DNA of 14,363 nucleotides from a virus. The notes under the pieces were generated by a model that was given only the letters and a program-made list of their open reading frames with translations, was not told the DNA's origin and did no database searches. This document shows, piece after piece, positions 1 to 14,363 of this stretch. Numbering within the stretch: the stretch's first letter is position 1; each line of letters opens with the position of its first letter. The position numbers and the translations under genes were made by a program. The DNA is taken from the UHGV virus genome UHGV-0778877, one strand, 5' to 3'.

Positions 1-130
1 TTGAAGATGCGTCGTACACGAGAACATGGCGCGGAAGATGGATAATCAGCAACTCATGCGCATCAAACCGCAGCGATTCCATCACGCCATCAGCCAGTTC
101 ATCAGCAGTGTAGGAGCGTAGTATTTTATC
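1..130. repeat. Direct-repeat copy of an internal gp10-like gene segment (copy A); 127 nt exact, 129/130 overall, matching 2271-2400
   Basis: Read directly: window 1-127 is letter-for-letter identical to 2271-2397; position 128 differs (a vs c); 129-130 match; sequences diverge completely from 131 versus 2401. Confidence 0.9.
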
Positions 131-504
131 GTAGCCAGTTGATTGCTTGTGGCTGTCGAACCAAGTCCTCCCGTAGCCTCAGCAGCAGCAAGGCTCTGGT
201 AACGAGCCTGACCTGCAAGGTCTTTATACTGCTGAGAGTTGTAATACTGATTAAGTGCCTTCCCCTGTCCTTCTAAACTGGAAAGATTCTGAAGCTGGTT
301 AACATACTGCTCCGCAAGCGGAGTGAACGGAGCAAGGTTTTTCATGATCGTCTGCCACTGCTGATTTTGCAGGTCTGCGGCATACTTCTGAGCTTCTGCT
401 GCATACTTTGCGCTTTTATCAGAGCTACCACCTTTCCCGCCTTTTTCAGGGCACCAAGGTTCCTCGCCGCGCAGTTTTCTGCCCAGCTTAAATGCATATA
501 ACAT
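82..504 (-). CDS. Ejection (injection) protein, P22 gp7-like, N-terminal ~126 codons only; ORF continues out of frame into the repeat copy and stops at 82
   Basis: ATG at 504 with GGGAG 6 nt upstream; translation (MLYAF...GGKGGSSDKSAKYAAEAQKY...) is recognisable as the gp7 ejection protein family by recall and by its position after the gp14-like gene. Codons after about residue 126 derive from the 1-127 repeat read in a non-gp10 frame. Full-length P22 gp7 is about 229 aa as I recall, so this copy looks truncated. Confidence 0.6.
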   Translation of the reverse strand: MLYAFKLGRKLRGEEPWCPEKGGKGGSSDKSAKYAAEAQKYAADLQNQQWQTIMKNLAPFTPLAEQYVNQLQNLSSLEGQGKALNQYYNSQQYKDLAGQARYQSLAAAEATGGLGSTATSNQLATIKYYAPTLLMNWLMA

Positions 505-506
505 GG

Positions 507-962
507 CTATCTCCCGTAATTCAGGAAGTCGATTAGTTCTTCGCGTGTGGCGCTGTAAAAAGTCACGTCATCCACGCCTTTGAAGTATTTCTTGATGGTT
601 CCTACACGCTTAAGGCCAATCATTGCGCAGTACATCTGACCGTGGCGGAATTTGCGCGCAGCGAACGATGTGACGCACTGAACGGTGGTGTTAGTCAGAA
701 TGTATCGCCAGAACGCCAGCCCGATTTCCTTGCTGAATCCACGAACCTCTGGCAGGTACATGGCGTGGCAATCAAAGGTCAAAGGCTGAATCTCCTGATA
801 GTAAACAATGCCGCCGAACTGCCCGTGCACGTTCACCTCGAAGTAACGGCATTCAGGCTTGTAGTCGTATCCATCACCGTTATTGCTTCCGGCGATAATG
901 TCAGGGTGATTTCCGACTGCTTCGATCAGGTCGATGTTTCGCGTTGGTTTGAACTGAATCAT
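507..962 (-). CDS. gp14-like head/ejection-protein assembly protein (assigned by synteny)
   Basis: 151-aa ORF, ATG at 962 overlapping the upstream stop (TAATG), stop 2 nt before the next gene start. Position between tail needle and gp7 matches P22/Sf6 gene order. The family name is an inference; the CDS call is strong. Confidence 0.6.
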   Translation of the reverse strand: MIQFKPTRNIDLIEAVGNHPDIIAGSNNGDGYDYKPECRYFEVNVHGQFGGIVYYQEIQPLTFDCHAMYLPEVRGFSKEIGLAFWRYILTNTTVQCVTSFAARKFRHGQMYCAMIGLKRVGTIKKYFKGVDDVTFYSATREELIDFLNYGR

Positions 963-1810
963 TACTGCTCCGCGATTATCTTGATGGTTGTGGCAGTAAA
1001 CGCCGCACCATTCGACTGAATGGTTAACGTACTGCCATTTGTGGCAAGAAAGCCGTCTTTATCCACACTGAAGAACGTAGCTAACAGGATGTTGTCGGTT
1101 GTTGTCGCCGCATTACGACTGCTGACCAGCGTATCAGGAACAGAACCGGAGAATGTTAGCTGCATTGACCTGTTGGCGGTTCCGCTGGGCCACGTCCCGA
1201 CAATCGACAGCTTGAAGAACAAGGTTTTGTTCTCGTTGAACACAACCATCTTGTTGTTAACGGTGTCGAAGAATGGTGCCAACGTTCCGGATGACGGCGT
1301 GAGCGTTTTCAGCAGGCTAACAAGGTTGGTCGGCGCTGTCGGGATGGTTACAGATACTCCTGAGTAAACAACCTCTGATTTCTTGCGCGTGGTGGCATAC
1401 TCAAGAGCATCGATGCGCGTCTCATGGTCTGAAAGCGTGTTTTGAATGGCGACAACTTCATCCGTCAGATAATCAATATCGTTTTCTGCTGTCGTTAATC
1501 GCGAATCAAGGCCGACTATCGCCGCTTCTGCGTTAGTGATCCTTGTTTCGTGGTCCTGTATCTTCGCTTCAGCCGATGCCAGTCGAATTTCGTGATCGAC
1601 CAGAATCACATCCTGCTCATCGTTCCTGACTTGTGCATCATAAGCGCCCTGTCCGACCTCGTTGGCCTTGTTAGCAACGTTACCAACATCAGTACCCTGT
1701 GCGATAACGTACAGCAGATATGACTGCGAGAAGATATTGCGTGGAAGGACTGATGTGTCGAGCCGCGTAGCCTGGATGATTACCGGCTCATTGAGATTCG
1801 AATCAGCCAT
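962..1810 (-). CDS. Tail needle protein (P22 gp26 / Sf6 gp9 family), 282 aa, with a C-terminal knob-like extension
   Basis: ATG at 1810 overlaps the gp10-like stop (TAATG), with AGGA 7 nt upstream. N-terminus [25 protein letters not shown] is the conserved gp10-binding tip of tail needles. The middle is heptad-rich with three DHE(T/I)R(I/L) repeats (coiled coil). The last ~140 aa are a Ser/Thr/Asn-rich beta-type domain absent from the short P22-type needle. The 316-aa ORF-track version is an upstream in-frame extension into gp10. Confidence 0.85.
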
Positions 1811-3228
1811 TACTCGATCCTTATCTGGCAGCCTGACAGAGTGACAGGTGACTTCGTGATAACGCGCAATTTGAAGCCGACATTTTTCCTGATGCGCCCG
1901 ACTCGCTTCCACAAAACGCGCTTGTCGTAAACGAACGGTTCATTCTGCTCAATCATCTGCTCACGCCCGTAATTGATGCCGTCAGTGGTTGCAGAGAGGA
2001 ACAGGCGGTCAGCGTACTGCGCAACGCCAGTTGACGATTCAACCTCAAGGTCGAAAACTCTGGCGTTATCTGCTTTGAAGAGTGGAGTAAACAGCAGGTG
2101 TTCCTGTTGCTTGTCGTACTGGCTGCTGATATCGAACTGCAGTTTACCGGTAACAGATTCCAGCTTATCGCCGCACGTTATCTGATTGCCTTCGTAAATG
2201 AAGTCGATAGCGCGGTACACATCGTCATACAGACCTGTTTTCAGCACACACCATTGCGGACCATTGGCGCTTGAAGATGCGTCGTACACGAGAACATGGC
2301 GCGGAAGATGGATAATCAGCAACTCATGCGCATCAAACCGCAGCGATTCCATCACGCCATCAGCCAGTTCATCAGCAGTGTAGGAGCGTAGTATTTTCTC
2401 AGTGCTCGCGCTGGCGATTGGTGATACCTGACCGGAGCCTATGATGTATACAGACGGCGCACCTGTTGCCGGATTGCTGATGAACGCATACGAGTCAGCA
2501 AACGGCGTTTTGCAGTAAGTCCCGGCAATGCCTTTCTGCACCATCAGTGATGGCTGTGCGACATACAAAGCGGCACCAACGGTGGTTGCACCTGTCAGGG
2601 AAAAATATTCAATCGTCGATGAGCCAAAGCAGACGATGAAGTCTCGCCATGTACCTATGCCGATGATGCCGTCCGGCTGAGACTCGGCACGATATTGTGC
2701 ACTGTAGCGGTCAGGATGCGATTCATCTTCAAGGTCAGTGATAAACCATGAATCAGTGCCGTCTTTTGACCACGCATAACGCCCACGTAAGCGCGTAATG
2801 TCGCGAACTGAACCTAACTCATACTGAGTGAATCCACTGTCTGTAGGCCAGTTTGAGACGGTTTTAACCGTGCCATCATAGCGATACTCGACCAGTTGAC
2901 CATTAACGCCTACCGCCTGTGATGTCCGACCATGCGCCATTGATACACGACCACTTCCGGCAACGTCACCGACTTCACTTTCTCCTTTGTACAGCTTGCC
3001 ACCACACACACGATAAACAGCACTCTGCGCCATGTTGTACTCGACGCCTCGCGATACTCCGTTCACATCAGAACGTTTGGCAATGCCCGGGAATGAGCGA
3101 AGATATCCGCTGCTGTTCAGGATTTCTTTGGGTGTAGCCAGCATATTCACTGGCAGATAGTCGATATAGTCGGCATTTCGGAAGTCTTTGCCGACACCTT
3201 TCATGAGCGGAAGTTGCTGAATCGGCAT
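1810..3228 (-). CDS. Head completion / tail hub protein, P22 gp10-like, 472 aa
   Basis: 472-aa ORF ([33 protein letters not shown]...), same length and recognisable sequence as P22 gp10; start ATG overlaps the gp4-like stop by 1 nt. Confidence 0.9.
2271..2400. repeat. Direct-repeat copy B, lying inside the gp10-like CDS (about codons 277-320)
   Basis: Same comparison as copy A; this copy is in its native coding context within the 1810-3228 ORF. Confidence 0.9.
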
Positions 3229-3728
3229 TATTCGCTCCCGTTATCGCAAGGTTCCTTTCGGTGGAAGTAATTCCAACCGTTCCACTTCGCCAACTGGTTA
3301 CCGCTACCAACAGGCATACGGTTTGGATAACCGGACTTACATTTAGCGGCTTTTGCTCTGTCCATTGCAGACAGTTTGACGAGTCGCTCTTTCCCGTATC
3401 TGGCAGTGGTTATAAGTTTTGCTGACGCTTCCAGCGCATAATCCGGAGCAATGCGGCAGGCAAGGTTGAAAATGACGGCATTGATAGCGTTATTTGATAA
3501 GCCGTGCTCATCGCCCGGATCCGGAGCGACATCTGCATCAGCAAAAATGTAGCCAACGTTGATACCAGGTGACACATCACCGCCAAGCCATTCAGCCATC
3601 ATCATTTCAAGGTCGTTGACCCCGTCTTCCATAGACTGCGGTTCGACATCGGTTAACGTGGCATTTGATGCAACACCGAGCTTACGTAATGCTGCAAGGA
3701 CTAAATCACCCTTCGTTGTCAGGTTCAT
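3228..3728 (-). CDS. Head completion protein, P22 gp4-like, 166 aa (alternative upstream ATG at 3797 would give 189 aa)
   Basis: The ORF-track frame is 189 aa; an internal ATG at 3728 gives 166 aa ([19 protein letters not shown]...), the length I recall for P22 gp4. The N-terminal 23 codons of the long form overlap the upstream small ORF. Start choice is uncertain. Confidence 0.8.
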
Positions 3729-3936
3729 CTGCTGCCGCCTTAGGTTTTCGATCAGGCTTTTTACGCTGTTTTTCTTCTGGCTCTGGCTCTGCAACATCCT
3801 TCAAAAGGTCATCAGGATGTGAAAACCAACCAGCATCCAGATATTCCTGAAGCTCTTCGGCTTTCACGATTTCAAAGTCGTAGCCAACGCCTTTCCACTT
3901 CTTCATGTCGCCATGACGAAAGATCATGTGTGTCAT
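3706..3936 (-). CDS. Small hypothetical protein with acidic, Lys/Pro/Glu-rich C-terminus, between coat and gp4-like genes (76 aa from the ATG; 92 aa if the GTG at 3984 is used)
   Basis: ATG at 3936 preceded by GGAGA about 6 nt upstream; the ORF-track start at 3984 is a GTG overlapping the coat stop. P22-like head modules carry a small ORF at this position, as far as I recall. No function recognised. Confidence 0.55.
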
Positions 3937-3980
3937 GCTTGTCTCCAGATAAAAAAGGGAGCCGAAGCTCCCTCTGGTTA

Positions 3981-5276
3981 TCACGCAGTCTGGCTAGGCA
4001 GACCAACACCAATTGCCTCTGGTCGTACAGCACATGCTGAATACCACACAGCAATACGGCACTTACCAGACAGAGTGTTGATATCACCCTGCGTTGCGAA
4101 GATGCCGTTAACACCAATACCAGGAATGCTGAAGGAAGACGTTTTCATACCAGCAAACAGTTCATGGGTTACCGGGATCGGCTGAGACAGCAGACGGATT
4201 GAGTCATCAGCCCAGAACACGTTAGCGGTGGTTGTTGCCACGTTCAGAACGTTTACCGGAGTGGTATTAGCAAGAGATGTGTTTACATTAGCGTAAGCCT
4301 TCTCTTCTTTTGTCAGTGACGCGTCATCCAGTGCAATCGGTTTCGGCGTGATTTCGATGTGAGTACCATCGATCACACGGGTGATTGAGAAAGTCGCATC
4401 ATCAGTCAGCACGTTCTTCGCCATCTGAGACAGGAATTTCACACCAGTGAAGCTGATTTTGTCGCCGCGCTTAAATCCGGTGGTGGAGGATACGGTCACC
4501 GTTGCAACACGGTTGTCGACGTTCTCTTTGTTACCATCGGTATCAAGGGTGTATGCCTGCGGCTTAAACTTCTGCGCACCAGAAACAGTTACACCAGTAG
4601 CGGTTGACTTGGTAACTGCAGGAAGTTTCGGTGAGCGAAGAATTTCATCAAAGCCAGCAATCTGACGCTGAATAGTACCGTTGCGATAAGCTTCTTCAGG
4701 AACGCGCCCAAAGATGTCACCATCTACCAGGTTGCGGCCTGCTTTGCGGTAATCGTCAGGGTTCAGGAAGTAACTGATGCCCATGTCGCGGTTGAGTTCG
4801 CGGGAGAACATCAGGCGCTCTGCATCAGACACAAAATCCCAGCCAGACAGGCCAGTAGATGGACCAATTGCGCGGGTATCGTGAACAACAAGTGAGCCCA
4901 TTTCAGTTGCCTGTTTGGCAATCGCTGACTCAATGTTATTCGCCAGTTTTTTGGCAGATGCCTGGATGCGGCGACGGTAAGAACGCTCATCACGCAGGTC
5001 ATCTGCACGAAGCTCGAAGAAATCGTTATCCGGATCGCCCATGTTGCATTTCACGGAGAGTTCCAGAATCCCGGTTGCGTTGCCAGTTAAATCCCAGCCA
5101 GTCTGGGTTGGCGCTTCCTGCTCAACAGGCATCCACACGGTGTTGCTTGAGCGCTGCATGGATTCTGCCGGAGGGGTGTATTTTGTCACTTTGGACGCCA
5201 TTGGCGTCAGGTTCTGGACGGTTTCGATGATTTCATCCAGAGCATACGTGACCAGTTGACCTTCATTTAATGCCAT
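3981..5276 (-). CDS. Major capsid (coat) protein, P22 gp5-like, 431 aa
   Basis: 431-aa [28 protein letters not shown]..., length and sequence recognisable as the P22 coat protein family (HK97-like fold with insertion domain); ATG overlaps the scaffold stop (TAATG). Confidence 0.92.
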
Positions 5277-6187
5277 TATCGAATTCCTTTATTCAGTTGC
5301 GCCTTGAGCTTGCGGTATGTCTCTACATCCCCTTTGTTTGCTGCCGCTTCCATCTGCTTTTCAATCGCAGATATATTTGCAGCAACAGCGTGTCCCTGAA
5401 TGGGTTCATCAGGTAGCGGGGCTTCTGAAACAGGTTTGGCTCGAGGCTTGAGAGTTAAACGTTCTGACAGTCGAGTGAGTTCAATCAACGCGGATTGCCC
5501 GTCCATCGCCAGCAACTGGCGTGTTTTTTCAGGATTAGCACCAAGGTGATACATGAGAGCAGCGGATTTCTCCGGGAAGAGGCGCATGATGTCGGCACCG
5601 ACTGCTGGCGGCACCAGTTGCATGAATGCATCCTCTTTCTCCTGATAGTCAGGGATATTGAGCTTTTCCGCTGCGTCGTAGTGCTTACGGGCTGCCTCGA
5701 CGTATTGCGCTGATTGCTGGGTGAACTCCTGAGTTTTGCGACCCTGCTCGGCGACAGCCTGGCTTCGTGCGTCCATAGCCTTGATCTGCCATTCACTGTT
5801 TGCCTGCTGGAAGGCAGCCAGTGCGCGGCTCTGGTCATAGTCGTACTTAGCCAGTGCATCTTCGGAAAGATAATCGTTAGGGTCTGGTTGTTTTGGTAAC
5901 TCAGGGTTAACCCGCAGGTGCTCCGGCAATTCTCCACGCTTAACCGCTTCCATCTGCTGCTCAAGCTCACGCTGGCGTTTGCGTTCGATGCGGCGACGGG
6001 CAAATTCAGCATTAGTTGCCGGGTCTTGTTTTGGTTTCTCATCGTCTTTCAGGACAATCTCGAAGCCTTCTTCCTGGCCTGCGTTGTCGTTGGCATTATC
6101 GACAACTAAGCCATCAGCAGATGCCGCTGCATGATTGCCGGGCAGGGTTAATTCTTCAGAAGCCTGAATGTCGGTGGTTTGGTCCAT
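5276..6187 (-). CDS. Scaffolding protein, P22 gp8-like, 303 aa
   Basis: 303-aa ORF, highly charged and helical in character (runs of E/K/R/Q/A), C-terminal basic helix-turn-helix-like tail (...[14 protein letters not shown]); position between portal and coat; same length as P22 gp8 as recalled. Confidence 0.9.
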
Positions 6188-6200
6188 GATTAACTCTCTC

Positions 6201-8366
6201 TTATTGAGGTGTCTCGGCTACTCCGCCGGAGGGGATTTGAACTTGACGCATAAGATTCGCGAAATCCATGCGTTGTGAATGAGTCTGGTCTGCATCTTTA
6301 AGAAGCAGCTCAGCGTTAGCACGAGCATCTTTGCTGCGCTGTTGCTGGAATTGACCTACGAGCTTGAGGTACTCACGCAGTTCTGCCTGCTTGTCGAGGT
6401 CCATATTGTTGAAGATTTCTGCAATCTTCGCGGCGTTGAGTTGGTTTTGGGCTTCAACCTTGGCAGCTTCAACCTGAATCTGCGCCTGTTGGTTCTCTGC
6501 CTTGAGCAATTCAGCCTGACCTTGCAGAAGGATACCCTGCGCCTGAATTTGCTCTGCTGATGGCTGCTGCGGCTGTTGTTGTGCCTGTTGTACCATCTCC
6601 ATCTCTTCAGGTGTTTCTGGTTTCTTCAGCCCCATCATCACCAGTTGCTTGTTCGCGTACTCTCGCATCATCTCGACGCCTTTACCGTCAAGGAGCGTGA
6701 AGTATTGCAGCATCAGCATCTGGAACTCTGGAGTACCTTGCGGAACCTTGGTGAGCAATTCCTGAATCTCTGCGCGGTTCTGTTCCTTCATGCTCTGGAA
6801 GGATGGCCCAACGTCCGTATAGCACTCATAGCGACCGCGAATGTCGTTGAGTGTGACCACATTGCCGGACTGATAATCGACAACTTGCGCATAGAGTTGA
6901 ACGTCTTTCTCGCTTCCATCTTCAAGTGTCAGCGTTACATGACGAGGAACGTCATAAATATCGTTGACCATTGAGGCATAAATCTCGCCATCACGTCGCA
7001 TTGCGGTAGCCAGGTTATCCTGAAACACATATGTCTCAAGGTCTGCCCGCATGTTCAGTTGATTGACAGTATCGAAAGCGACCTGAGAGTTTGCTGCCTG
7101 CGCATCCACGCCAAGACTAGCCACCTCTTTCACTGCGTTGGTGGCAGCCTCAAGCATGTAAGCGTTGGCTTGCGGCACTTCAGGGTTTTCCATGTAGGAG
7201 ATTGGACCAATCGGCAGGTCGTTACCGTTTTCATCAGTCCTGTTCTGGAGATAGTACGGATAGTCATCATTTCCACCGTACATGTATTCGTAGCCTTCGA
7301 TTTGCTCAGGGAAGAAGGTAGGTTTCTTCTTCGGTGAACGAGCAACAATATCGGCGTTGAACGACATGATCATGTTACGAAGGCGCTGACCGTCTTTCGT
7401 CAGCCTTACCACTCCTTCGTAGCACTCCTTGTCACCAGCGAATGACCATTCGCCGTACACAGGAACTATTGGGATATGCTCTCCGGCTATCTTCTCGCGG
7501 TCTTTCAGTATCTGCGTGCAGGTGATGATCGACTTATACACACGCCGACGCTTCACCTTGCGCTCTGCTACCTTAATGAATCCACGATTAGCCAGATCGT
7601 CGATGACGTCTTTGATATCCTGCTGGTAATAGCTGACCGGCTCACCTGTCAGCGGGTCGCGGTAGATGAAGACCTTCTCTTTCTTCTCTTCTACCTCGTA
7701 ATACTCAGCGACGTAGACGACATCATTCGATACCCACGGAAACAGCCATGTGTCGTTCGGATTCTGGAAAGATGGCAGGGTGTCAGGATCAATACCGTAA
7801 TCCTCTGCGAACTCTTTCCAGCCATTGCGTGACAAAGCGTTAATCACCGTGCAGTGCTTAGCGTCGCTCTTATCCATCTGCTTGCTGTTGGCGTCCCATA
7901 TGACGTGTGAGCAGGCTTCATGGATTGGCAGGCGTCTGATTACCTGATTGTTGCTTGTTGGGTCGTTGTCTTCGTACTGTGTGACCAGACGCCATGCACC
8001 AACGCCGGACTCTATCTGCTCACGAACGCCAACGTTAACGGCAATCTTTGCCGTGTTATGCCGCATATCAGTACGATACATCCCCATCAACAAATCGGCT
8101 GCATCAGGATTAGCGCCGTCTTTGGGTCGGAAGAGAACGTCGATAGGGTTCCGGCGCATCTCTGCGACCAGTTTCCTGACCACCGGGCGAACAACATCGA
8201 ATTGTCCGCGATATTGCAGGGTAGTGTAGTTTGATAGCCAGTCATCCCATTGCGACACTCGGCTAAAATACAGGTCATTTGTCGCCTCGGTTCTGGCTTC
8301 ATCGCTCGCCATCCAGTCCGCGTCAAACTTACACAGAATGGAATTGAGTCTGTTTTCGTCGGCCAT
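6201..8366 (-). CDS. Portal protein, P22 gp1-like, 721 aa
   Basis: 721-aa [31 protein letters not shown]...; recognisable P22 portal, including the long Q-rich C-terminal helical barrel region ([35 protein letters not shown]...). ATG directly follows the terminase stop. Confidence 0.93.
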
Positions 8367-9866
8367 TTAAGTTCTCCGTGCGATGGGCCTGATTGGGGCT
8401 GGTATCTTTTTCTCTTTTGGTTTTTTGATGTCGCGCATCATTTTGGCGAAGCGGCGCATCATGTATGCATAGCGAACGGCTGAGAGAACATCGTCGTTAA
8501 GCTTGACGATCTTCCCGTTTTCATCACGGTGATAGAGGCGGAACTCCTCAAAGAATGGCTCACAGGTGTTGAATACTTTGAAGCGACCATCGAGCATCAT
8601 GTCGCGCAATTCAGTGATGCCAGGCTCCACAGCATTACCGCCATCAGGCCATGTCGCATGCTCCTGCAACATCATAAAACCAGCGTCGGCATACTGCCCT
8701 TTGAGCTGCTCACCGCCGCCCTTCTCATGCTGGTTTCCGTCATGAGGCCATGCGGTTGGCACTTTATGCGCCCATGATTTAACGGCTCCCCACGCCTGAA
8801 CGGCTGTTTTTTCTTTCGCCTTCCACACGCGTGAAACGTAGATTGTGTCTGCGTCCTTATCCCACCAAAGCTGAACCTGCGCCTGTGGGTGATCCCATCC
8901 GAAATCCATCCCGCCAATTACGTAGAAGTGATCAGGACACTCGAACGGCTGACACTTAATCGTCTCTTCCGGTATCTGGAAGATTCGACCACTACCCATC
9001 GTAGGAATACCGCGAGCACGCGCCTCTCTCTCATGCTCTGGATAGGATGCGATGATTTGCTCTTTCTGCTCGTCGGTATAGTGCTCAGCGTCATAGATGG
9101 TCATGTTGACCACTTTCTGCGACTTGCTGGGATTCTTCAGGAACTTGGTAACAACGTCAGACATCCCCATCAGCGGGGTAAACGTCAGAATTGAGAATTG
9201 CCCGTATTTGTTGGTACGGGTAAGACCTTCGCCATAAATGCTGTATGGTGGCTCTTCGTCAAACCACACGCCGTGGATTGTGTCACCCTGCCAGCGAGCA
9301 CGGCCTTGCGAGTATGGTTTGAAGTAGCAGATTGAAATGCCATCTTCAACGCCATCAGCCGTGTGATGCTTAACCAGAAGATGATCAACAAGGTTCGGAA
9401 AGAAAGGAGACTTCTTCCAGCTAATGATGTCTTCTTTCGGTATGGAACCGTAGCCAGGCTCATCATTCTCTTCGATACGACCGCACAGGATGCGTTGAGT
9501 CGTTTTGGTTACAGTCTCGTTTGTCTCGCCACCAATCCAGAAGACAACAGGCTCATAGAAACGCTTACCTTTCCACTCCCCACCATATTTACCATCAGCA
9601 GGATATCCTTTTGTGCCCGGATAACGCCCGGTAAGGTGAAATGCGACTTCAGCAGCACCAGTAAATGACTTACCAAGCTGGTTACCAGCCATAAAACAGC
9701 GCTCTGGATAGTCATGCCCGGCGTCGATGAACTCACGCTGTTTGCTGTATGGCGTAAATTCATATAGCAGGTGTGTGTTCCGGTAGTTCTCTTCTTCTTC
9801 GAGTAGCTCGAGCAATTCGATTTGCTCTTCGTCGCTCAGGTTATCAAGAATCGCGTCCAGTTCCAC
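8367..9866 (-). CDS. terL: Terminase large subunit, P22 gp2-like, 499 aa
   Basis: 499-aa ORF with ATPase and nuclease character, located between small terminase and portal. The first codon at 9866 is GTG, not ATG (read from sequence), with AAGGAG about 10 nt upstream; no in-frame ATG lies nearby. It overlaps the terS 3' end by 23 nt. Confidence 0.9.
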
Positions 9867-10338
9867 GGTTGAATAGCTCCTTGATACGAGAGCGCCGCTT
9901 ATCGCGATCTCCCTTATCAGGTGTCACGTCTTCAACTTGCGACTGCTCTTTGAGGCCCAAATCACGGGCGATGATGTTAGCGTTGAGAAGGTCAGCGGCT
10001 GCGCCAGAGAATTTCTGGTCGTAGATGACCTGCTCTGCTCGCGTAACGACTTCAGATAAATCTTCTCTCAGGCGATATGTGCGCCATGTTTCAAGCGTCA
10101 CATCAATGAACAGAGTGAGGCCTGTAATAGTCATCGCTCGCATCTTGGCGATAGGCTCTTGTATCACTTCACCCTGATACGAGAACGCCTTCATCTCCCA
10201 TAGCGGGTTAGCTTCTACCCACTCGAAGTATTCACAACAAGCAGCCCACAGCGCCTCAGGCGATTCGAATTTAGGATTTCGCCCATGACTACTGCGGGCC
10301 TCCCAAAATCGGTTGCCCTTTGGTGCTGCCATATTCAT
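9844..10338 (-). CDS. terS: Terminase small subunit, P22 gp3-like (164 aa from the ATG at 10338; 162 aa from the ATG at 10332)
   Basis: [52 protein letters not shown]..., recognisable as P22 gp3; two in-frame ATGs 6 nt apart; it contains the pac-like sequence listed below. Confidence 0.9.
10044..10065 (-). other. Candidate headful packaging initiation site (pac), P22-type, inside terS
   Basis: The minus-strand sequence GAAGATTTATCTGAAGTCGTTA encodes EDLSEVV within terS, the codon context in which the 22-bp P22 pac site lies; it matches or nearly matches the P22 pac sequence as I recall it from memory (not checked). Confidence 0.45.
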
Positions 10339-10355
10339 CTCACTTAGTTGTTATT

Positions 10356-10535
10356 TCAGGCTGATGACTCTTTCGCGCCTTCAATCAATGACTGCTTCAG
10401 CAATTCGAGTGTGCCAATCGCCTCACATAAACTGATTTCACCATCGTAATCATGAATGACGCTTTCCAGCCGCTCGTATAGCTCTTGAGTAATTGGGAAT
10501 TTCTTCTCCTTACCCAAATTGATTACGCGGCTCAC
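10356..10535 (-). CDS. Unlisted small ORF, 59 aa, GTG start, tightly coupled to the upstream 80-aa ORF (alternatively a frameshifted continuation of it)
   Basis: Hand translation of the minus strand: GGAG, then 6 nt, then GTG at 10535, one nucleotide after the upstream TGA; it reads VSRVINLGKEKKFPITQELYERLESVIHDYDGEISLCEAIGTLELLKQSLIEGAKESSA, then TGA. It is below the apparent 60-aa cut-off of the ORF track. This frame is open for about 8 codons upstream of the GTG, inside the 80-aa ORF. Confidence 0.4.
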   Translation of the reverse strand: MSRVINLGKEKKFPITQELYERLESVIHDYDGEISLCEAIGTLELLKQSLIEGAKESSA

Positions 10536-10536
10536 A

Positions 10537-10779
10537 TCATGCTCCGGTGGTGAACAGGTCTAACGCTTCCTTCGATTTACGCACCGCTTCGAATGTGCGG
10601 ATCGTGATATCCGAATTAGCGCCGCCTGACTGGAAGTGAATTTTGAATAGCTCAAGCTTCAACTCGTCAGTACCAATGAACTGAAATGCTTCTTCTGCGG
10701 CTGCGTTCTGGTTCATGACCAGCTTGTAAATCTCTAACTGGAATTTCTGTTCTTCAGTCATGGGAATAATCTCTGCCAT
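10537..10779 (-). CDS. Hypothetical protein, 80 aa
   Basis: ATG at 10779 with GGAG about 7 nt upstream; no family recognised; sits between the gp49/gp66-like gene and terS in the late operon. Confidence 0.6.
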   Translation of the reverse strand: MAEIIPMTEEQKFQLEIYKLVMNQNAAAEEAFQFIGTDELKLELFKIHFQSGGANSDITIRTFEAVRKSKEALDLFTTGA

Positions 10780-10800
10780 TGTTGGCTCCGTTTATCCGTT

Positions 10801-10829
10801 AAAAGGGATATCAGTTAAGTTATCCCGTG
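10801..10829 (-). terminator. Weak hairpin plus short T-run between the gp49/gp66-like gene and the 80-aa ORF
   Basis: Inverted repeat GGGATA (10805-10810) and TATCCC (10821-10826) with a 10-nt loop; on the minus strand it is followed by TTTT. The stem is short and AT-rich, so any terminator function would be weak. Confidence 0.2.
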
Positions 10830-10882
10830 TAGGGTATAAGCCATTATCAAAGCCACTCTGTAGGGAATGGCTTTTGTAATAA

Positions 10883-11263
10883 CTACTGTTCGCTTAGCTT
10901 CTGCTTCAGCAAGTAACCTTCGAGCATCCAGATTTTGTTTACAGCATTTTGCCGGGCAATCTTCCGACCAATTTCTGCATCAAAGTTTTCCGGGCTCGCA
11001 CAGGCACTCTCTCCGGTGACGGTGAAGCCATTCTTCAGCACCAGTACGCAGAAAGTGAGCAACTTCAATGGTGATAAATCACGATCGCCTTCTTCTGGTT
11101 TTTCCCTGCCACAATATTCGTTGCTGGAAATGGCACCATTTCGTCCATCACAAGCAGTAAAGTAATGCTCGCTTTTAATCACGTCTTCGATGTGCTGCGG
11201 GGTGATTCGCGGTGCCGTTTTGCCTTTCTCAACGATTTCTTTTTCGATTTGCTGGTCGTTCAT
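10883..11263 (-). CDS. Phage gp49/Sf6 gp66-family protein (function unknown), 126 aa
   Basis: 126-aa ORF containing the stretch ...LKNGFTVTGESACASPENFDAEIGRKIARQNAVNKIW..., which I recognise as characteristic of the N4 gp49 / Sf6 gp66 family; placement just upstream of the terminase genes fits. Weak Shine-Dalgarno. Confidence 0.6.
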   Translation of the reverse strand: MNDQQIEKEIVEKGKTAPRITPQHIEDVIKSEHYFTACDGRNGAISSNEYCGREKPEEGDRDLSPLKLLTFCVLVLKNGFTVTGESACASPENFDAEIGRKIARQNAVNKIWMLEGYLLKQKLSEQ

Positions 11264-11641
11264 AATTATGACCCTGTGGAGTGGTTGCTTGATTAGGATG
11301 TCTTTCCATCAGTCCGCCACCACAAAGAATCTTTTTTGCCATAAGGCAGGAGGTTCATCTTTCAGTGGCTGCCAGTGTTATTTCCCCACTTACTGGCTTG
11401 GGTTGTTTCGCTGTACTGCCGTAACTGGTTACCCAGAATAAATTTTGGTTTCATTATCAAGCCCATCCGTAGATAGGCTTTGTAATGAACTGGCTCTTAT
11501 CTCAACGCAGCCCCTTACCGCGCGCAAGATGCTCAATATCAAGCATCAGCAATGAGATGTTTAATCTGGATTCACTCCAGAAGTGATCACCATCCTGTCT
11601 ACAGAGCCAGATGTGAAGGATGATGAGTAAAATTATCGCTA

Positions 11642-12109
11642 TCATCGAAGGCATTGCGTCCTGATGTATTCCTGAAGCGTTCTCAGTGCTGTTTGGTCGC
11701 GGATAATTCCGTCCCGGACACCGAGAACGTTTCGTCCAGCAACTGGAGAGAGTTCGACGGTGGCATCATTGCCCATGCCGGAGGCGCCGGAGGTTTCGGC
11801 TGAGGATGGCACAGGGCATTTTCCTTTGACGAGCACCCTGCCACCATTATCAAGCTTGCGCCGAAGAGCATCATTTTCAGCTTTCGCATCAGCTAACTCC
11901 TTCGTGTATTTAGCATCGAGTGCATCAGCAGCACGCTGGCGTTGCTGCATGTCAGTAATGGTGGCGGTCGCCTGCTTCAGCTCACTGACTTTTTTATCTC
12001 GCTGTTCTTTGTAGGCGATGGCGTTATCACGGTAGTGATTAACAGCCCATGACAGGCAAACGATGATGCAGATAACCAGAGCGGAGATAATCGCGGTTAC
12101 TCTGCTCAT
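11642..12109 (-). CDS. Rz: Spanin inner-membrane subunit (i-spanin) Rz, lambda-type, 155 aa
   Basis: [31 protein letters not shown]... recognisably lambda Rz; ATG overlaps the R stop (ATGA) as in lambda. Confidence 0.92.
11683..11889 (-). CDS. Rz1: Spanin outer-membrane lipoprotein subunit (o-spanin) Rz1, embedded in Rz in the +1 frame
   Basis: ORF wholly inside Rz in another frame: [21 protein letters not shown]... with a lipobox (VAGC) and a Pro-rich mature region ([11 protein letters not shown]), as in lambda Rz1. Confidence 0.85.
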
Positions 12110-12582
12110 ACCTCAATCTCTCTGACCGTTCCGCCAGCTTCTTTGAATTTTGCAATCAGGCTGTCAGCCTTATGCTCGAACTGACCATAACCAGCCCCCG
12201 GCAGTGAAGCCCAGATATTGCTGCAACGGTCGATAGCCTGACGAATATCACCGCGATCAATCATCGGCAAAGCGCCACGTTCCTTAATCTGCTGCAGCGC
12301 AACAGCGTCCTGGCTTTTGGGAGAGAAGTCTTTCAGGCCAAGCTGCTTACGATAGGCATCCCACCAACGGGAAAGAAGCTGATAGCGACCGGCTGCTGTT
12401 GATTTGAGTTTGGGGTTTAGCGTGACAAGTTTGCGAGGGTGATCGGAGTAATCAGTGAATAGCTCTCCGCCTACAATGACGTCATAACCATGATTTCTGG
12501 TTTTCTGACGTCCGTTATCTGTTCCCTCTGACCATGCCAGCATATCGAGGAACGCCTTACGTTGATTATTGATTTCCACCAT
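12106..12582 (-). CDS. R: Endolysin R, lambda-type lytic transglycosylase, 158 aa
   Basis: [42 protein letters not shown]... recognisable as lambda R along its whole length; overlaps the S 3' end by 17 nt as in lambda. Confidence 0.95.
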
Positions 12583-12889
12583 CTTCTACTCCGGCTTTTT
12601 TAGCAGCGAAGCGTTTGATAAGCGAACCAATCGAGTCAGTACCGATGTAGCCGATGAACACGCTCGTTATATAAGCGAGATTGCTACTTAGTCCGGCGAA
12701 GTCGAGAAGGTCACGAATGAACCAGGCGATAATGGCGCACATCGTTGCGTCGATTACTGTTTTTGTAAACGCACCGCCATTATATCTGCCGCGAAGGTAC
12801 GCCATTGCAAACGCAAGGATTGCCCCGATGCCTTGTTCCTTTGCCGCGAGAATGGCGGCTAACAGGTCATGTTTTTCTGGCATCTTCAT
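12566..12889 (-). CDS. S: Holin/antiholin S, lambda-type class I holin, 107 aa with dual start motif (Met1 and Met3)
   Basis: [34 protein letters not shown]... recognisable as lambda S; ATG at 12889 (S107-equivalent) and ATG at 12883 (S105-equivalent). Confidence 0.95.
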
Positions 12890-12894
12890 GTCTT

Positions 12895-12910
12895 ACCCCC
12901 AATAAGGGGA
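12895..12910 (-). promoter_or_regulatory. sdi-like stem-loop upstream of the S dual start
   Basis: Minus-strand CCCCTTATTGGGGG immediately upstream of the S start codons, as in the lambda S leader, where this hairpin sets the holin:antiholin start ratio. Confidence 0.6.
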
Positions 12911-13014
12911 TTTGCTCTATTTAATTAGGAATAAGGTCGATTACTGATAGAACAAATCCAGGCTACTGTGTTTAGTAATCAGATTTGTTCGTGACCGATA
13001 TGCACGGGCAAAAC

Positions 13015-13044
13015 GGCATGAGGTTGTTAGCGCAACCTCCTGCC
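13015..13044. repeat. Imperfect 12-bp inverted repeat with 6-nt loop in the Q-S spacer
   Basis: Minus strand GGCAGGAGGTTG cgctaa CAACCTCATGCC (one mismatch) followed by GTTTTGCCC; function unknown; weak terminator-like on the minus strand. Confidence 0.3.
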
Positions 13045-13423
13045 ACCCACTTTCACGAAGGTCATGTGTAGAAAGCCGCAGCATAACTATCACTGATGAA
13101 TTCAGGATAGCCAGTGGCTACGGCCCAGTTTGGGTTGTGGCGGTCGGTGCTGAACTCCGACTTAATGACGATAGGCGTGTACCGACGCCTCGTTTTACTT
13201 CCTCCGCTTTCACGGCTTCACCCTAGACCAGCTTTACGAAATCCTCGTAAACCTAACCGCGGCAGATATGACCGGCACGGTGTACCATATCACGGACCGG
13301 CGGGTGTCTCGTTCACCTGATTAACGCATCAGCCTGCGTATTCACCACAACGATAAGAGCACTGCGCGGCACCTTTCACCAATTCCGCGAGGTCTGCGGG
13401 TTCAATGCTCTTACCTGTTGTGC

Positions 13424-13469
13424 AAATAAAAAAGCCACCGTTGCAACTTAAGAGTCACTAACGGCAGCT
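13424..13469 (-). terminator. Intrinsic terminator immediately downstream of Q (tR'-equivalent)
   Basis: Minus strand AGCUGCCGUU (17-nt loop) AACGGUGGCU forms a 10-bp stem (two G-U pairs), followed by TTTTTTATTT. Downstream sequence (tgcacaacaggtaagagcattga...) resembles, as I recall it, the lambda sequence just past tR'. Confidence 0.55.
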
Positions 13470-13478
13470 TACCTTCTA

Positions 13479-13508
13479 ATTATGGCTAAATGGCTAATTG
13501 CATGTCAA
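13479..13508 (-). promoter_or_regulatory. Candidate Q-dependent late promoter (pR'-equivalent) overlapping the Q stop codon
   Basis: Minus strand TTGACA (13508-13503), 18-nt spacer, CATAAT (13484-13479); the predicted transcript start is about 35-45 nt upstream of the terminator above, the arrangement expected for a Q-modified late promoter. Confidence 0.45.
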
Positions 13509-14004
13509 GACTTTTAACAGCAACATGCTTAACTTTCTCAACACGTTTACGCATTTTGAAAGCATTTTGCATTGGTTGGTACAAAACAAATAACGACGCT
13601 TTCAGGATGTCGTCAATTTCGTTTCTACAGGTTGCCAGTGAAGGTTTTCTCCATCCCTCGCCACCACGTCCACACATCTTGCGTGGCTTTGCAGTCGCGT
13701 GATAGTAGGATGCAATTGCTCGCTTAGATGAACCATGAGCGTAGTAGCTGAGGAGGATGCCAAAGGCTTTCTTGTCAATGTACATGACGGAATCAACGAC
13801 CTGAGAAATCAACATTCCATCATCATCATTACACATTGGCCTTGTCATAATTCTTCCCGGCTCTACGCTCTCCATGAACTTCGCTATTACGCTGCTCATG
13901 CGCTTTTCCAGACGACCTGAATAAACCCATGCTCCCCACAGTTCAAGCCAGCCATTCAGCCACTCGTGCTGCTCTTTGGTGAGGTTTAGTTCTCTTATGC
14001 CCAT
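13486..14004 (-). CDS. Q: Late-gene antitermination protein Q, QuuD/phage-82-type (not lambda-Q-type), 172 aa
   Basis: 172-aa ORF with ...[13 protein letters not shown]...[19 protein letters not shown]...LLSYYAHG..., the pattern I recognise from E. coli prophage Q homologues such as QuuD; located directly upstream of the lysis cassette; start overlaps the ninI-like stop. Confidence 0.8.
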
Positions 14005-14363
14005 GCGCCTTCTCCCTGTACATGAATCAATGTGAGGTTTCCGCAGAACACTGCGCCGGTATCGATATACATCTGGTTGGCAAACTTGAGTGGTTTCACT
14101 GCTGGCGTATGACCAAAGATGAACGTGTCCGCTCCTTTGATTTCTTTCACGATCCCGTCTTGTGAGTTGCTGATTCGTTCGCGGTTCCAGATTACCTGCT
14201 GATGATCAACTGGCTTTCCAAACTCGTATTCGTCACAGGGATAATCGGCGTGGCAGATGACATATTTTTTACCTTCGCTCACCAGTTCGATGATTAACGG
14301 AAGTTCATCTGCTTTATGGGGCAAGAGCTTTAGCCAGAATTTCTTTGTCGTAATCGAGATTAA
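13995..14363 (-). CDS. ninI: Ser/Thr protein phosphatase, lambda NinI (ORF221)-like, C-terminal part; 5' end lies beyond the window
   Basis: The frame is open from the window edge: ...[42 protein letters not shown]...[12 protein letters not shown]...[11 protein letters not shown], a metallophosphatase pattern recognisable as lambda NinI. The ORF-track start at 14324 is an internal TTG, not the true start. Confidence 0.85.

What the first reader, a model, noticed from the sequence alone, without database searches (positions are those of the whole stretch)
1..504. Exact 127-bp copy of an internal gp10 segment fused out of frame to a truncated gp7-like gene at the window edge
Positions 1-127 are identical to 2271-2397 (129/130 over 1-130). 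On the minus strand the gp7-like reading frame runs normally for about 126 codons, then continues into this gp10-derived sequence in a different frame and stops after 14 more codons. The arrangement is what a tandem duplication of the about 2.27-kb unit 131-2400 (gp10 3' part, tail needle, gp14-like, gp7 5' part) would produce, with the window capturing the end of one copy and all of the next. It could equally be a deletion or rearrangement junction in a decaying prophage. The exact-match length of 127 nt equals a commonly used de Bruijn assembler k-mer size, so a contig-end artefact is a real alternative. If genuine, the gp7-like ejection protein in this copy is non-functional.
Basis: seen in the sequence. 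Interest (0 to 1): 0.75.

Follow-up and report, generated by a model that had tools for sequence, protein, structure and literature searches.

The report
Contig-end 127-base assembler overlap
The first 127 bases of this prophage fragment exactly repeat an internal piece of the same fragment, most likely because a k=127 genome assembler stopped at an unresolved loop, so this is ordinary unless sequencing reads show a genuine small duplication.

Summary
Window 1-127 is identical to 2271-2397, and the match ends exactly at 127|128. On the minus strand the gp7 gene runs for 126 native residues, then reads 14 out-of-frame codons of gp10 sequence and stops.

The interpretation cannot rest on the 127-base copy. 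That length is the largest k of the SPAdes assembler, the copy sits on the window edge, and its only real boundary is the junction. It is best read as the k-mer overlap left where a contig path closed a loop.

The one real datum is a single blunt, head-to-tail junction (2397 to 128, 2,270-base unit, no microhomology). The same prophage, identical over 13,910 bases, is in public contig CYGL01000178.1 with intact gp7, gp20 and gp16. The junction is absent from 5,426 complete E. coli genomes, 50,697 phage records, IMG/VR, JGI metagenomes and GTDB representative genomes. The fusion protein is absent from the gene index.

My view is that the junction comes from chimeric or minority molecules (about 0.55). 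A genuine recent tandem duplication stays possible (about 0.3). A decaying prophage is unlikely. Reads or the assembly graph would settle it. Interest is low.

The parts
1..127 (.). Terminal copy of gp10-internal segment S. I interpret it as the k=127 overlap (graph vertex) at the contig end.
   Evidence: It is identical to 2271-2397. The match stops exactly at 127|128. Homology of every relative to gp7 starts at base 128.
127..128 (.). The junction, joining gp10 gene nucleotide 832 (base 127) to gp7 gene nucleotide 377 (base 128). It is blunt, with no microhomology.
   Evidence: Three-way alignment. No match in complete E. coli genomes, phage records, IMG/VR, GTDB representative genomes or JGI metagenomes.
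82..504 (-). Truncated gp7-like ejection-protein ORF: 126 native residues plus 14 out-of-frame gp10-derived codons, 140 aa in total.
   Evidence: Translation. Pfam P22_gp7 E=8.8e-78, profile positions 1-135 of 230. The intact counterpart is 231 aa in L012.
507..962 (-). gp14-like DUF2824 protein, 151 aa.
   Evidence: Pfam PF11039 E=6.5e-53.
962..1810 (-). Sf6-type tail needle with knob, 282 aa.
   Evidence: Pfam PF16532 E=5.2e-109. The exact protein occurs on only 2 public contigs.
1810..3228 (-). gp10 packaged-DNA stabilisation protein, 472 aa, intact. It contains the internal copy of S.
   Evidence: Pfam PF11134 E=1.2e-299, full profile length.
2271..2397 (.). Internal, native copy of segment S inside gp10 (gp10 gene nucleotides 832-958).
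   Evidence: It is collinear with gp10 in all relatives.
128..2397 (.). The 2,270-base unit whose end is joined to its start by the junction. This is the loop in the assembly graph, or the duplicated unit if the junction is real.
   Evidence: Start-to-start spacing of 2,270 bases. The unit is 100% identical to CYGL01000178.1, where it is single-copy and continues into native gp7.

Best explanation
The window is very probably one whole contig from a de Bruijn-graph assembly with final k = 127 (SPAdes-type). Bases 1-127 are not independent sequence. They are the 127-mer graph vertex (the same k-mer as 2271-2397) at which the contig path closed a cycle and stopped, in the same way that SPAdes leaves 127-base overlaps on circular contigs. 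What the contig records is a single head-to-tail junction joining base 2397 to base 128. The junction has no shared bases, so it cannot be a k-mer collapse and must have been present in some reads. I infer that those reads came from chimeric library fragments or a minority of rearranged molecules, not from the predominant structure of the prophage. On that reading, the real prophage carries an intact gp7 followed by gp20 and gp16, as its identical twin does. Steps shown: the exact repeat, the exact breakpoint, the intact twin, and the absence of the junction elsewhere. Steps inferred: that the window start is a contig end, that the assembler used k=127, and that read support for the junction is low.
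For: (1) The repeat is exactly 127 bases, bounded on one side only by the window edge and on the other by the junction. SPAdes contigs are documented to carry 127-base artificial overlaps at their ends (PMC5923482, PMC8104045).
(2) The two copies are 100% identical, as a shared graph vertex must be. The same 130 bases differ at 6-10 positions in the ten other related loci compared, L001 and L003-L011.
(3) Window 128-14037 is 13,910/13,910 identical to CYGL01000178.1. That contig runs straight on into a complete 231-aa gp7, then gp20 and gp16. Divergence starts exactly at base 127.
(4) No place in 5,426 complete E. coli genomes or 50,697 phage records spans the junction. A 30-base junction string is absent from IMG/VR, GTDB representative genomes and JGI metagenomes. 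The exact fusion protein is absent from the gene index. None of the 21 gp7 homologues whose sequences I read carries its tail.
(5) The window's right end falls within about 400 bases of where the independent contig of the same prophage also ends, which fits the window being a whole contig.
(6) Other draft assemblies show non-native junctions in this gene cluster. L014 and L015 have internal gp7 repeats, for which the listed complete-genome matches each span only a single copy. L016 is a 3.9x metaSPAdes contig that flips to inverted gp20. CYGL01000178.1 has an inverted segment 414 bases from its own end.
(7) A blunt junction is what random fragment ligation most often gives; in-vivo illegitimate recombination more usually shows a few shared bases (my own knowledge).
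Against: A blunt junction cannot be generated by graph collapse, so real reads must contain it. SPAdes normally removes very low-coverage chimeric edges. As I understand its path extension, it would normally follow the well-supported native gp7 path rather than end a 14-kb contig on the chimeric edge. Both breakpoints lie only 2.27 kb apart on the same strand. That is unlikely for random chimeras across a 5-Mb genome and natural for a local duplication. A short-read assembler would collapse a true tandem duplication, so the intact gp7 in the twin contig does not exclude a duplication even in that strain. I could see no reads, coverage values or assembly graph, and the source assembly was not found in any collection.
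Confidence: 0.55

Rival explanations
1. The sequenced clone, or a large fraction of its prophage or phage DNA, carries a genuine and very recent 2,270-base tandem duplication of the unit 128-2397. It would arise by illegitimate unequal exchange between sister copies or concatemers, or by a deletion within a tandem double lysogen. In gene order the structure would be gp10, needle, gp14, gp7(1-126)::out-of-frame tail, gp10 3' part, needle, gp14, intact gp7, gp20, gp16. The assembler could not resolve the loop and stopped one k-mer past the junction.
For: The junction has exactly the head-to-tail topology of a tandem duplication. Its lack of homology means the junction was present in reads. The two breakpoints are close together and on the same strand. 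The contig ends on the junction edge rather than following native gp7, which suggests appreciable support. Zero SNPs against an intact twin fit a very recent event. Such a duplication would leave an intact gp10 and an intact gp7, so it would not be counter-selected (inference).
Against: Only 127 bases of the second copy are seen, and that length is the assembler's k, not a biological length. No other genome, phage or metagenome contig carries the junction. The lack of microhomology is less typical of in-vivo RecA-independent duplication (my own knowledge). As I understand SPAdes, it usually resolves a clean one-entrance, one-exit loop and carries on into the exit, which did not happen here.
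Confidence: 0.3
2. A fixed complex rearrangement in a decaying prophage. The native gp7 3' part, gp20 and gp16 are no longer adjacent, and a partial second copy of gp10 sequence follows gp7 codon 126, for example a duplication followed by a deletion.
For: A contig that ends in a cycle with no exit is what would be expected if the native gp7 377-to-378 adjacency were missing from the reads (inference). Real, heritable deletions that remove gp7 3', gp20 and gp16 5' do occur in P22-like prophage remnants and are seen with several different assemblers (L017-L021).
Against: The junction points upstream to gp10, not downstream, so a single deletion cannot produce it and at least two events are needed. 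The rest of the contig shows no decay: 13,910 bases are identical to a prophage in which every late gene is called at normal length. The second S copy is identical to this phage's own S, so it does not come from a diverged second prophage.
Confidence: 0.08
3. The truncated 140-aa gp7 fusion is a deliberate product, for example a short gp7 isoform or a recombination-generated variant with a function of its own.
For: None beyond the existence of the ORF.
Against: The tail is 14 out-of-frame codons of gp10 with no homologue among the gp7 relatives whose sequences I read. The fusion protein is not on record anywhere. The profile match stops at position 135 of 230.
Confidence: 0.01

Closest known systems
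SPAdes k=127 contig-end overlaps (artificial terminal repeats on contigs that close a cycle in the de Bruijn graph)
   Same: The length is exactly 127 bases, the two copies are identical, and one copy sits on the sequence edge. The phenomenon is described for phage assemblies in PMC5923482 and PMC8104045.
   Different: In the textbook case the first 127 bases equal the last 127 bases, because the whole contig is a circle. Here the first 127 bases equal an internal segment 2,270 bases in, so the path is a small cycle with a 12-kb tail. That shape needs an extra junction edge in the graph.
Spontaneous tandem duplications in phage and bacterial genomes formed by illegitimate (RecA-independent) recombination
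   Same: The junction is head-to-tail, the unit is a few kilobases, and an out-of-frame fusion ORF forms at the join.
   Different: The second copy is not observed beyond 127 bases. There is no microhomology at the join, no depth information, and no other carrier.
P22/Sf6-like (Lederbergvirus-type) late operon of E. coli and Shigella prophages
   Same: Gene order and Pfam families match: terminase small and large subunits, portal, scaffold, coat, gp4, gp10, Sf6-type needle knob, DUF2824, gp7. The first 3.3 kb is about 95% identical to Sf6, and the whole window is 96-97% identical to IME10 and to many E. coli prophages.
   Different: Only the terminal 127 bases depart from the family's arrangement.
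Deletion remnants of P22-like prophages that lack the ejection genes (gp7'-gp16' fusions)
   Same: gp7 is truncated at a similar distance into the gene: residue 102 in L017-L021 and residue 126 here.
   Different: Those junctions join gp7 to downstream gp16 sequence and recur across independent assemblers. This one joins gp7 to upstream gp10 sequence and is unique.

Membership tests
De Bruijn (k=127) contig-end overlap artefact | Repeat length equals the assembler's k | tested here: met
   The exact match is 127 bases, with a mismatch at base 128. 127 is the SPAdes maximum k, and 127-base artificial overlaps are reported.
De Bruijn (k=127) contig-end overlap artefact | One copy abuts a true contig end | tested here: inconclusive
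   The copy starts at window base 1. The window's other end lies within about 400 bases of the end of an independent contig of the same prophage, which suggests the window is a whole contig. The source record itself was not found.
De Bruijn (k=127) contig-end overlap artefact | The two copies are identical | tested here: met
   127/127 identical. The ten other related loci compared (L001, L003-L011) differ at 6-10 of 130 positions.
De Bruijn (k=127) contig-end overlap artefact | The junction has weak or no read support, or is a minor graph edge | not testable with these tools
   No reads, coverage values or assembly graph are available.
Tandem duplication | Head-to-tail junction, with the end of the unit joined to its start on the same strand | tested here: met
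   Base 2397 is joined to base 128 in direct orientation.
Tandem duplication | A second copy of the whole unit is present | tested here: inconclusive
   Only 127 bases of a second copy lie within the window, and the sequence ends there.
Tandem duplication | Doubled read depth over the unit, and reads or long reads that span the junction | not testable with these tools
   No reads are available.
Decaying prophage (deletion junction) | The junction joins a gene to sequence downstream of it, with loss of what lay between | tested here: not met
   gp7 is joined to gp10, which lies upstream in the operon.
Decaying prophage (deletion junction) | Other signs of decay such as frameshifts or truncated genes | tested here: not met
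   Window 128-14037 is 100% identical to a contig in which every late-operon gene is called at normal length. Pfam matches cover the full length of the profiles.
P22/Sf6-like late operon | Characteristic gene set and order: terminase small and large subunits, portal, scaffold, coat, gp4, gp10, needle, gp14-like, gp7 | tested here: met
   Pfam hits. The portal, scaffold, coat and large terminase families are taken from the identical contig's gene table. Collinear with Sf6, IME10 and HK620.

The most novel reading that the evidence does not exclude
The junction is real. A P22/Sf6-like E. coli prophage identical to an intact one has very recently acquired a blunt-ended 2,270-base tandem duplication spanning the gp10 3' part, the needle gene, the gp14-like gene and the gp7 5' part. 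It would add second copies of the needle and gp14-like genes and a 140-aa N-terminal gp7 fragment, alongside intact gp10 and gp7. A weaker extension is that gp7 nucleotides 377-383 are a recurrent breakpoint, because three other draft assemblies have odd junctions within 6 bases of it.
Probability: 0.3. Interest if true: 0.2.

Novelty: not a real feature. Interest (0 to 1): 0.1.

Why it matters
It matters mainly as quality control. A 127-base exact repeat that touches a contig edge should be read as the assembler's k-mer overlap, not as evidence of a duplicated or decaying gene. The gp7 gene of this prophage should not be annotated as a pseudogene on this evidence. If reads showed the junction to be real, it would be an ordinary, unstable tandem duplication in a prophage late operon. 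That would be a known kind of event, with no obvious consequence for the phage, because intact gp10 and gp7 copies would remain.

Tried and rejected
1. I tried to find the source contig or any other carrier of the junction. A 30-base junction string searched in IMG/VR, GTDB representative genomes and JGI metagenomes gave no hits. An exact look-up of the 140-aa fusion protein found nothing on record. A junction-spanning BLAST against complete E. coli genomes and phage records found no place covering at least 80% of the query.

2. I asked whether k-mer collapse at a short shared repeat could have made the junction. I rejected this because the two parental sequences share no bases at the break.

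3. I asked whether the S copy could come from a second, diverged P22-like prophage, as in a deletion between two prophages. I rejected this because S is 127/127 identical to this phage's own gp10, while the other related loci compared (L001, L003-L011) differ at 6-10 of 130 positions.

4. I asked whether a mosaic boundary at gp7 nucleotides 377-383 could explain a graph branch there. I rejected this because mismatch density against 12 related loci shows no step at that position.

5. I followed up the idea of a rearrangement hotspot at gp7 nucleotides 377-383. L014, L015 and L016 have junction donors at nucleotide 383. However, the hit list was selected for proteins that match the first 126 residues. 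Other recurrent break positions also exist (169, 180, 306-308, 423). The L014 arrangement is single-copy in the listed complete-genome matches. I estimate chance proximity at roughly 10% and leave this as an unproven side lead.

6. An Rfam scan and a tRNA scan of the window found nothing.

7. The cut position of a PvuI-like CGAT^CG site coincides with the gp7 breakpoint. I noted this but did not pursue it, because the gp10 side has no such site.

Full report
**Observation**

Window 1-127 is base-for-base identical to 2271-2397. Apart from a 26-base, 85% pair, this is the only direct repeat in the window, and there are no inverted repeats. An exact 127-mer repeat in 14 kb cannot arise by chance.

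All genes lie on the minus strand. ORF 82-504 encodes 140 aa: the first 126 residues of a gp7 ejection protein, then [14 protein letters not shown] and a stop. The junction codon still encodes Ile. Base 2397 is codon position 1 in gp10, but base 127 is codon position 3 in the fusion, so the gp10 sequence is read out of frame.

- P22_gp7, profile positions 1-135 of 230 only
- DUF2824 (gp14-like)
- Sf6-type needle knob
- Phage_stabilise (gp10), full length

The rest of the window is a standard P22/Sf6-like late region. Pfam matches the remaining window ORFs I tested to gp4, the small terminase subunit, the holin, Rz and antiterminator Q, and the 158-aa ORF between the holin and Rz genes had no Pfam match. 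The gene table of the identical contig adds the coat, scaffold, portal and large terminase genes. The whole window is 96-97% identical to phage IME10 and to many E. coli prophages, and the first 3.3 kb is about 95% identical to Sf6.

**Anatomy of the junction**

A three-way alignment of the window start, the internal gp10 copy and a native gp7 places the break exactly between bases 127 and 128. The gp10 parent reads ..GTATTTT|CTCAG and the gp7 parent reads ..GCGCG|ATCGTAG. The two parents share no base on either side of the break.

The junction joins base 2397 to base 128 on the same strand. This is the head-to-tail join of a 2,270-base unit, 128-2397. A single deletion cannot give that topology, because gp10 lies upstream of gp7 in the operon.

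**An identical prophage with a normal gp7**

The exact needle protein of the window occurs on only two public contigs. One is CYGL01000178.1, a 33.6-kb contig of assembly GCA_001292545.1.

Window 128-14037 matches that contig at 13,910 of 13,910 bases (alignment of the left part). Identity is lost exactly at window base 127. The public contig continues from there into a complete 231-aa gp7 with a full-length Pfam match, followed by gp20 and gp16.

So the ancestral state of this very phage is intact. Whatever produced the junction is either extremely recent or not biological.

**Is the junction seen anywhere else?**

No:
- A 191-base query across the junction finds no place covering at least 80% of it in 5,426 complete E. 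coli genomes. In every hit, homology to gp7 starts at window base 128.
- The same is true in 50,697 phage records.
- A 30-base junction string has no exact match in IMG/VR, GTDB representative genomes or JGI metagenome contigs.
- The 140-aa fusion protein is not on record among 153 billion gene positions.
- None of the 21 gp7 relatives whose sequences I read (of 835 homologues found) carries its tail.

**Why 127 matters**

The length of the repeat is set by two things only: the junction and the edge of the window. A breakpoint lying exactly 127 bases from a sequence end is what a de Bruijn assembler with k=127 produces when a contig starts at a graph vertex. The number 127 is the largest k SPAdes allows (my own knowledge). 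[quoted passage not shown]

The window's odd length suggests it is a whole contig. So does the position of its right end, which lies within about 400 bases of where the independent contig of the same prophage ends, in the ninH-phosphatase region that is multi-copy in some E. coli genomes.

Bases 1-127 are therefore best read as the same graph vertex as 2271-2397, written twice because the contig path closed a 2,270-base cycle. They say nothing about how far a second copy extends.

**What remains real**

The two parental sequences share no bases at the break. The junction therefore cannot be a collapse of a short repeat at any k and must have been present in reads. Those reads could come from three sources:
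- chimeric library fragments
- a minority of rearranged molecules
- a duplication present in all molecules

Several points favour a technical or minority origin. The join is blunt. The junction is unique. The twin prophage is intact. Odd junctions are also common in draft assemblies of this gene cluster, and in the two cases I searched (L014's repeats and the end of CYGL01000178.1) complete E. coli genomes did not show the same arrangement:
- L014 and L015 contain internal gp7 repeats, for which the listed complete-genome matches each span only a single copy.
- L016, a 3.9x metaSPAdes contig, flips from gp7 nucleotide 383 into inverted gp20.
- CYGL01000178.1 has an inverted ninH-phosphatase segment 414 bases from its own end that no complete genome reproduces.

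Other points favour a genuine duplication. The two breakpoints are only 2.27 kb apart on the same strand, which is improbable for random chimeras in a 5-Mb genome. SPAdes normally discards very low-coverage chimeric edges. A 14-kb contig ended on the junction edge instead of following native gp7. The intact gp7 in the twin contig does not exclude a duplication either, because short-read assemblers collapse tandem copies.

I put the technical or minority reading at about 0.55, a fixed tandem duplication at about 0.3, and a more complex fixed rearrangement at about 0.08.

**The decaying-prophage reading**

Real deletion remnants of P22-like prophages do exist. Fusions of gp7 residues 1-102 to gp16 fragments recur in contigs made by several different assemblers (L017-L021). 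Those junctions point downstream, and at least one such remnant (L018) carries a further lesion, a gp4-needle fusion. The window's junction points upstream, and the other 13.9 kb shows no lesion at all. A second, diverged prophage as donor is excluded because the S copy is identical to this phage's own gp10.

**Side lead**

Junction donors in L014, L015 and L016 fall at gp7 nucleotide 383, six bases from the window's break at nucleotide 377. I found no mosaic boundary there. The hit list was biased toward proteins that match the first 126 residues, and other recurrent positions exist. I therefore treat this as a possible local sequencing or assembly trouble spot, not as an established hotspot.

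**Verdict**

At most it is an ordinary recent tandem duplication. It does not show that this prophage's gp7 is defective. Reads, the assembly graph, an outward-facing PCR or one long read would settle it. Interest is low.

Noticed in passing
L012 1-420 (CYGL01000178.1), corresponding to just beyond window 14037/14038: The public contig that is 100% identical to window 128-14037 has its own unnatural junction. Its first 414-420 bases are the reverse complement of ninG-3'/ninH/phosphatase-5', joined with a 6-base overlap to phosphatase-3'/Q. This is consistent with an inversion of about 823 bases or with a contig-end artefact. No complete E. coli genome spans it, and the window itself runs through this point in the natural order.
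   Followed up: partly
L014 9345-9640 and L015 9397-9540 (CABWBR010000116.1, CABVWO010000109.1): gp7 carries exact internal repeats in these drafts: nucleotides 1-383, 169-383, 306-616 in L014, and 1-383, 169-308, 180-616 in L015. Both break the reading frame. The same contigs are reported from 6 and 2 samples respectively. The listed complete E. coli genome matches each span only a single copy of this region. These could be unmerged contig overlaps from an assembly-improvement pipeline or real clone-specific duplications.
   Followed up: partly
L016 4218-5461 (ERZ807457 NODE_46, coverage 3.9): This metaSPAdes contig switches at gp7 nucleotide 383 into gp20/gp7 sequence on the opposite strand. 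It is a fold-back-like chimera located 6 bases from the position where the window breaks.
   Followed up: partly
L017-L021 (gp7 genes at locus positions 4001-4411, 3018-3428, 948-1358 and 4001-4516): Two different deletions join gp7 residue 102 (..AGQARY) to C-terminal parts of gp16. Both recur in contigs from Logan, ENA metagenomes and NCBI, so they are real, heritable P22-like prophage remnants lacking gp20. The shared donor codon suggests a short homology between gp7 and gp16, which I did not examine.
   Followed up: no
L003 15495-17586 and L010 15636-17586; also L004/L009 13092-13607 and L020 2316-2849: Related prophages carry HNH/NUMOD4 homing-endonuclease genes inserted next to gp10, the coat gene or the needle gene. 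In L003 a 34-aa gp10 5' fragment precedes the HNH gene and a full gp10 follows it, which is a genuine small gp10 partial duplication flanking a mobile gene.
   Followed up: no
window 128-145 (gp7 nucleotides 360-383 on the minus strand): The gp7 breakpoint falls inside ..GGCTACGAT|CGCGCC.., exactly at the top-strand cut position of a CGAT^CG (PvuI-type) palindrome. It lies next to a 5-base stem, AGCCA..TGGCT. The gp10 side has no such site, so this may be coincidence.
   Followed up: no
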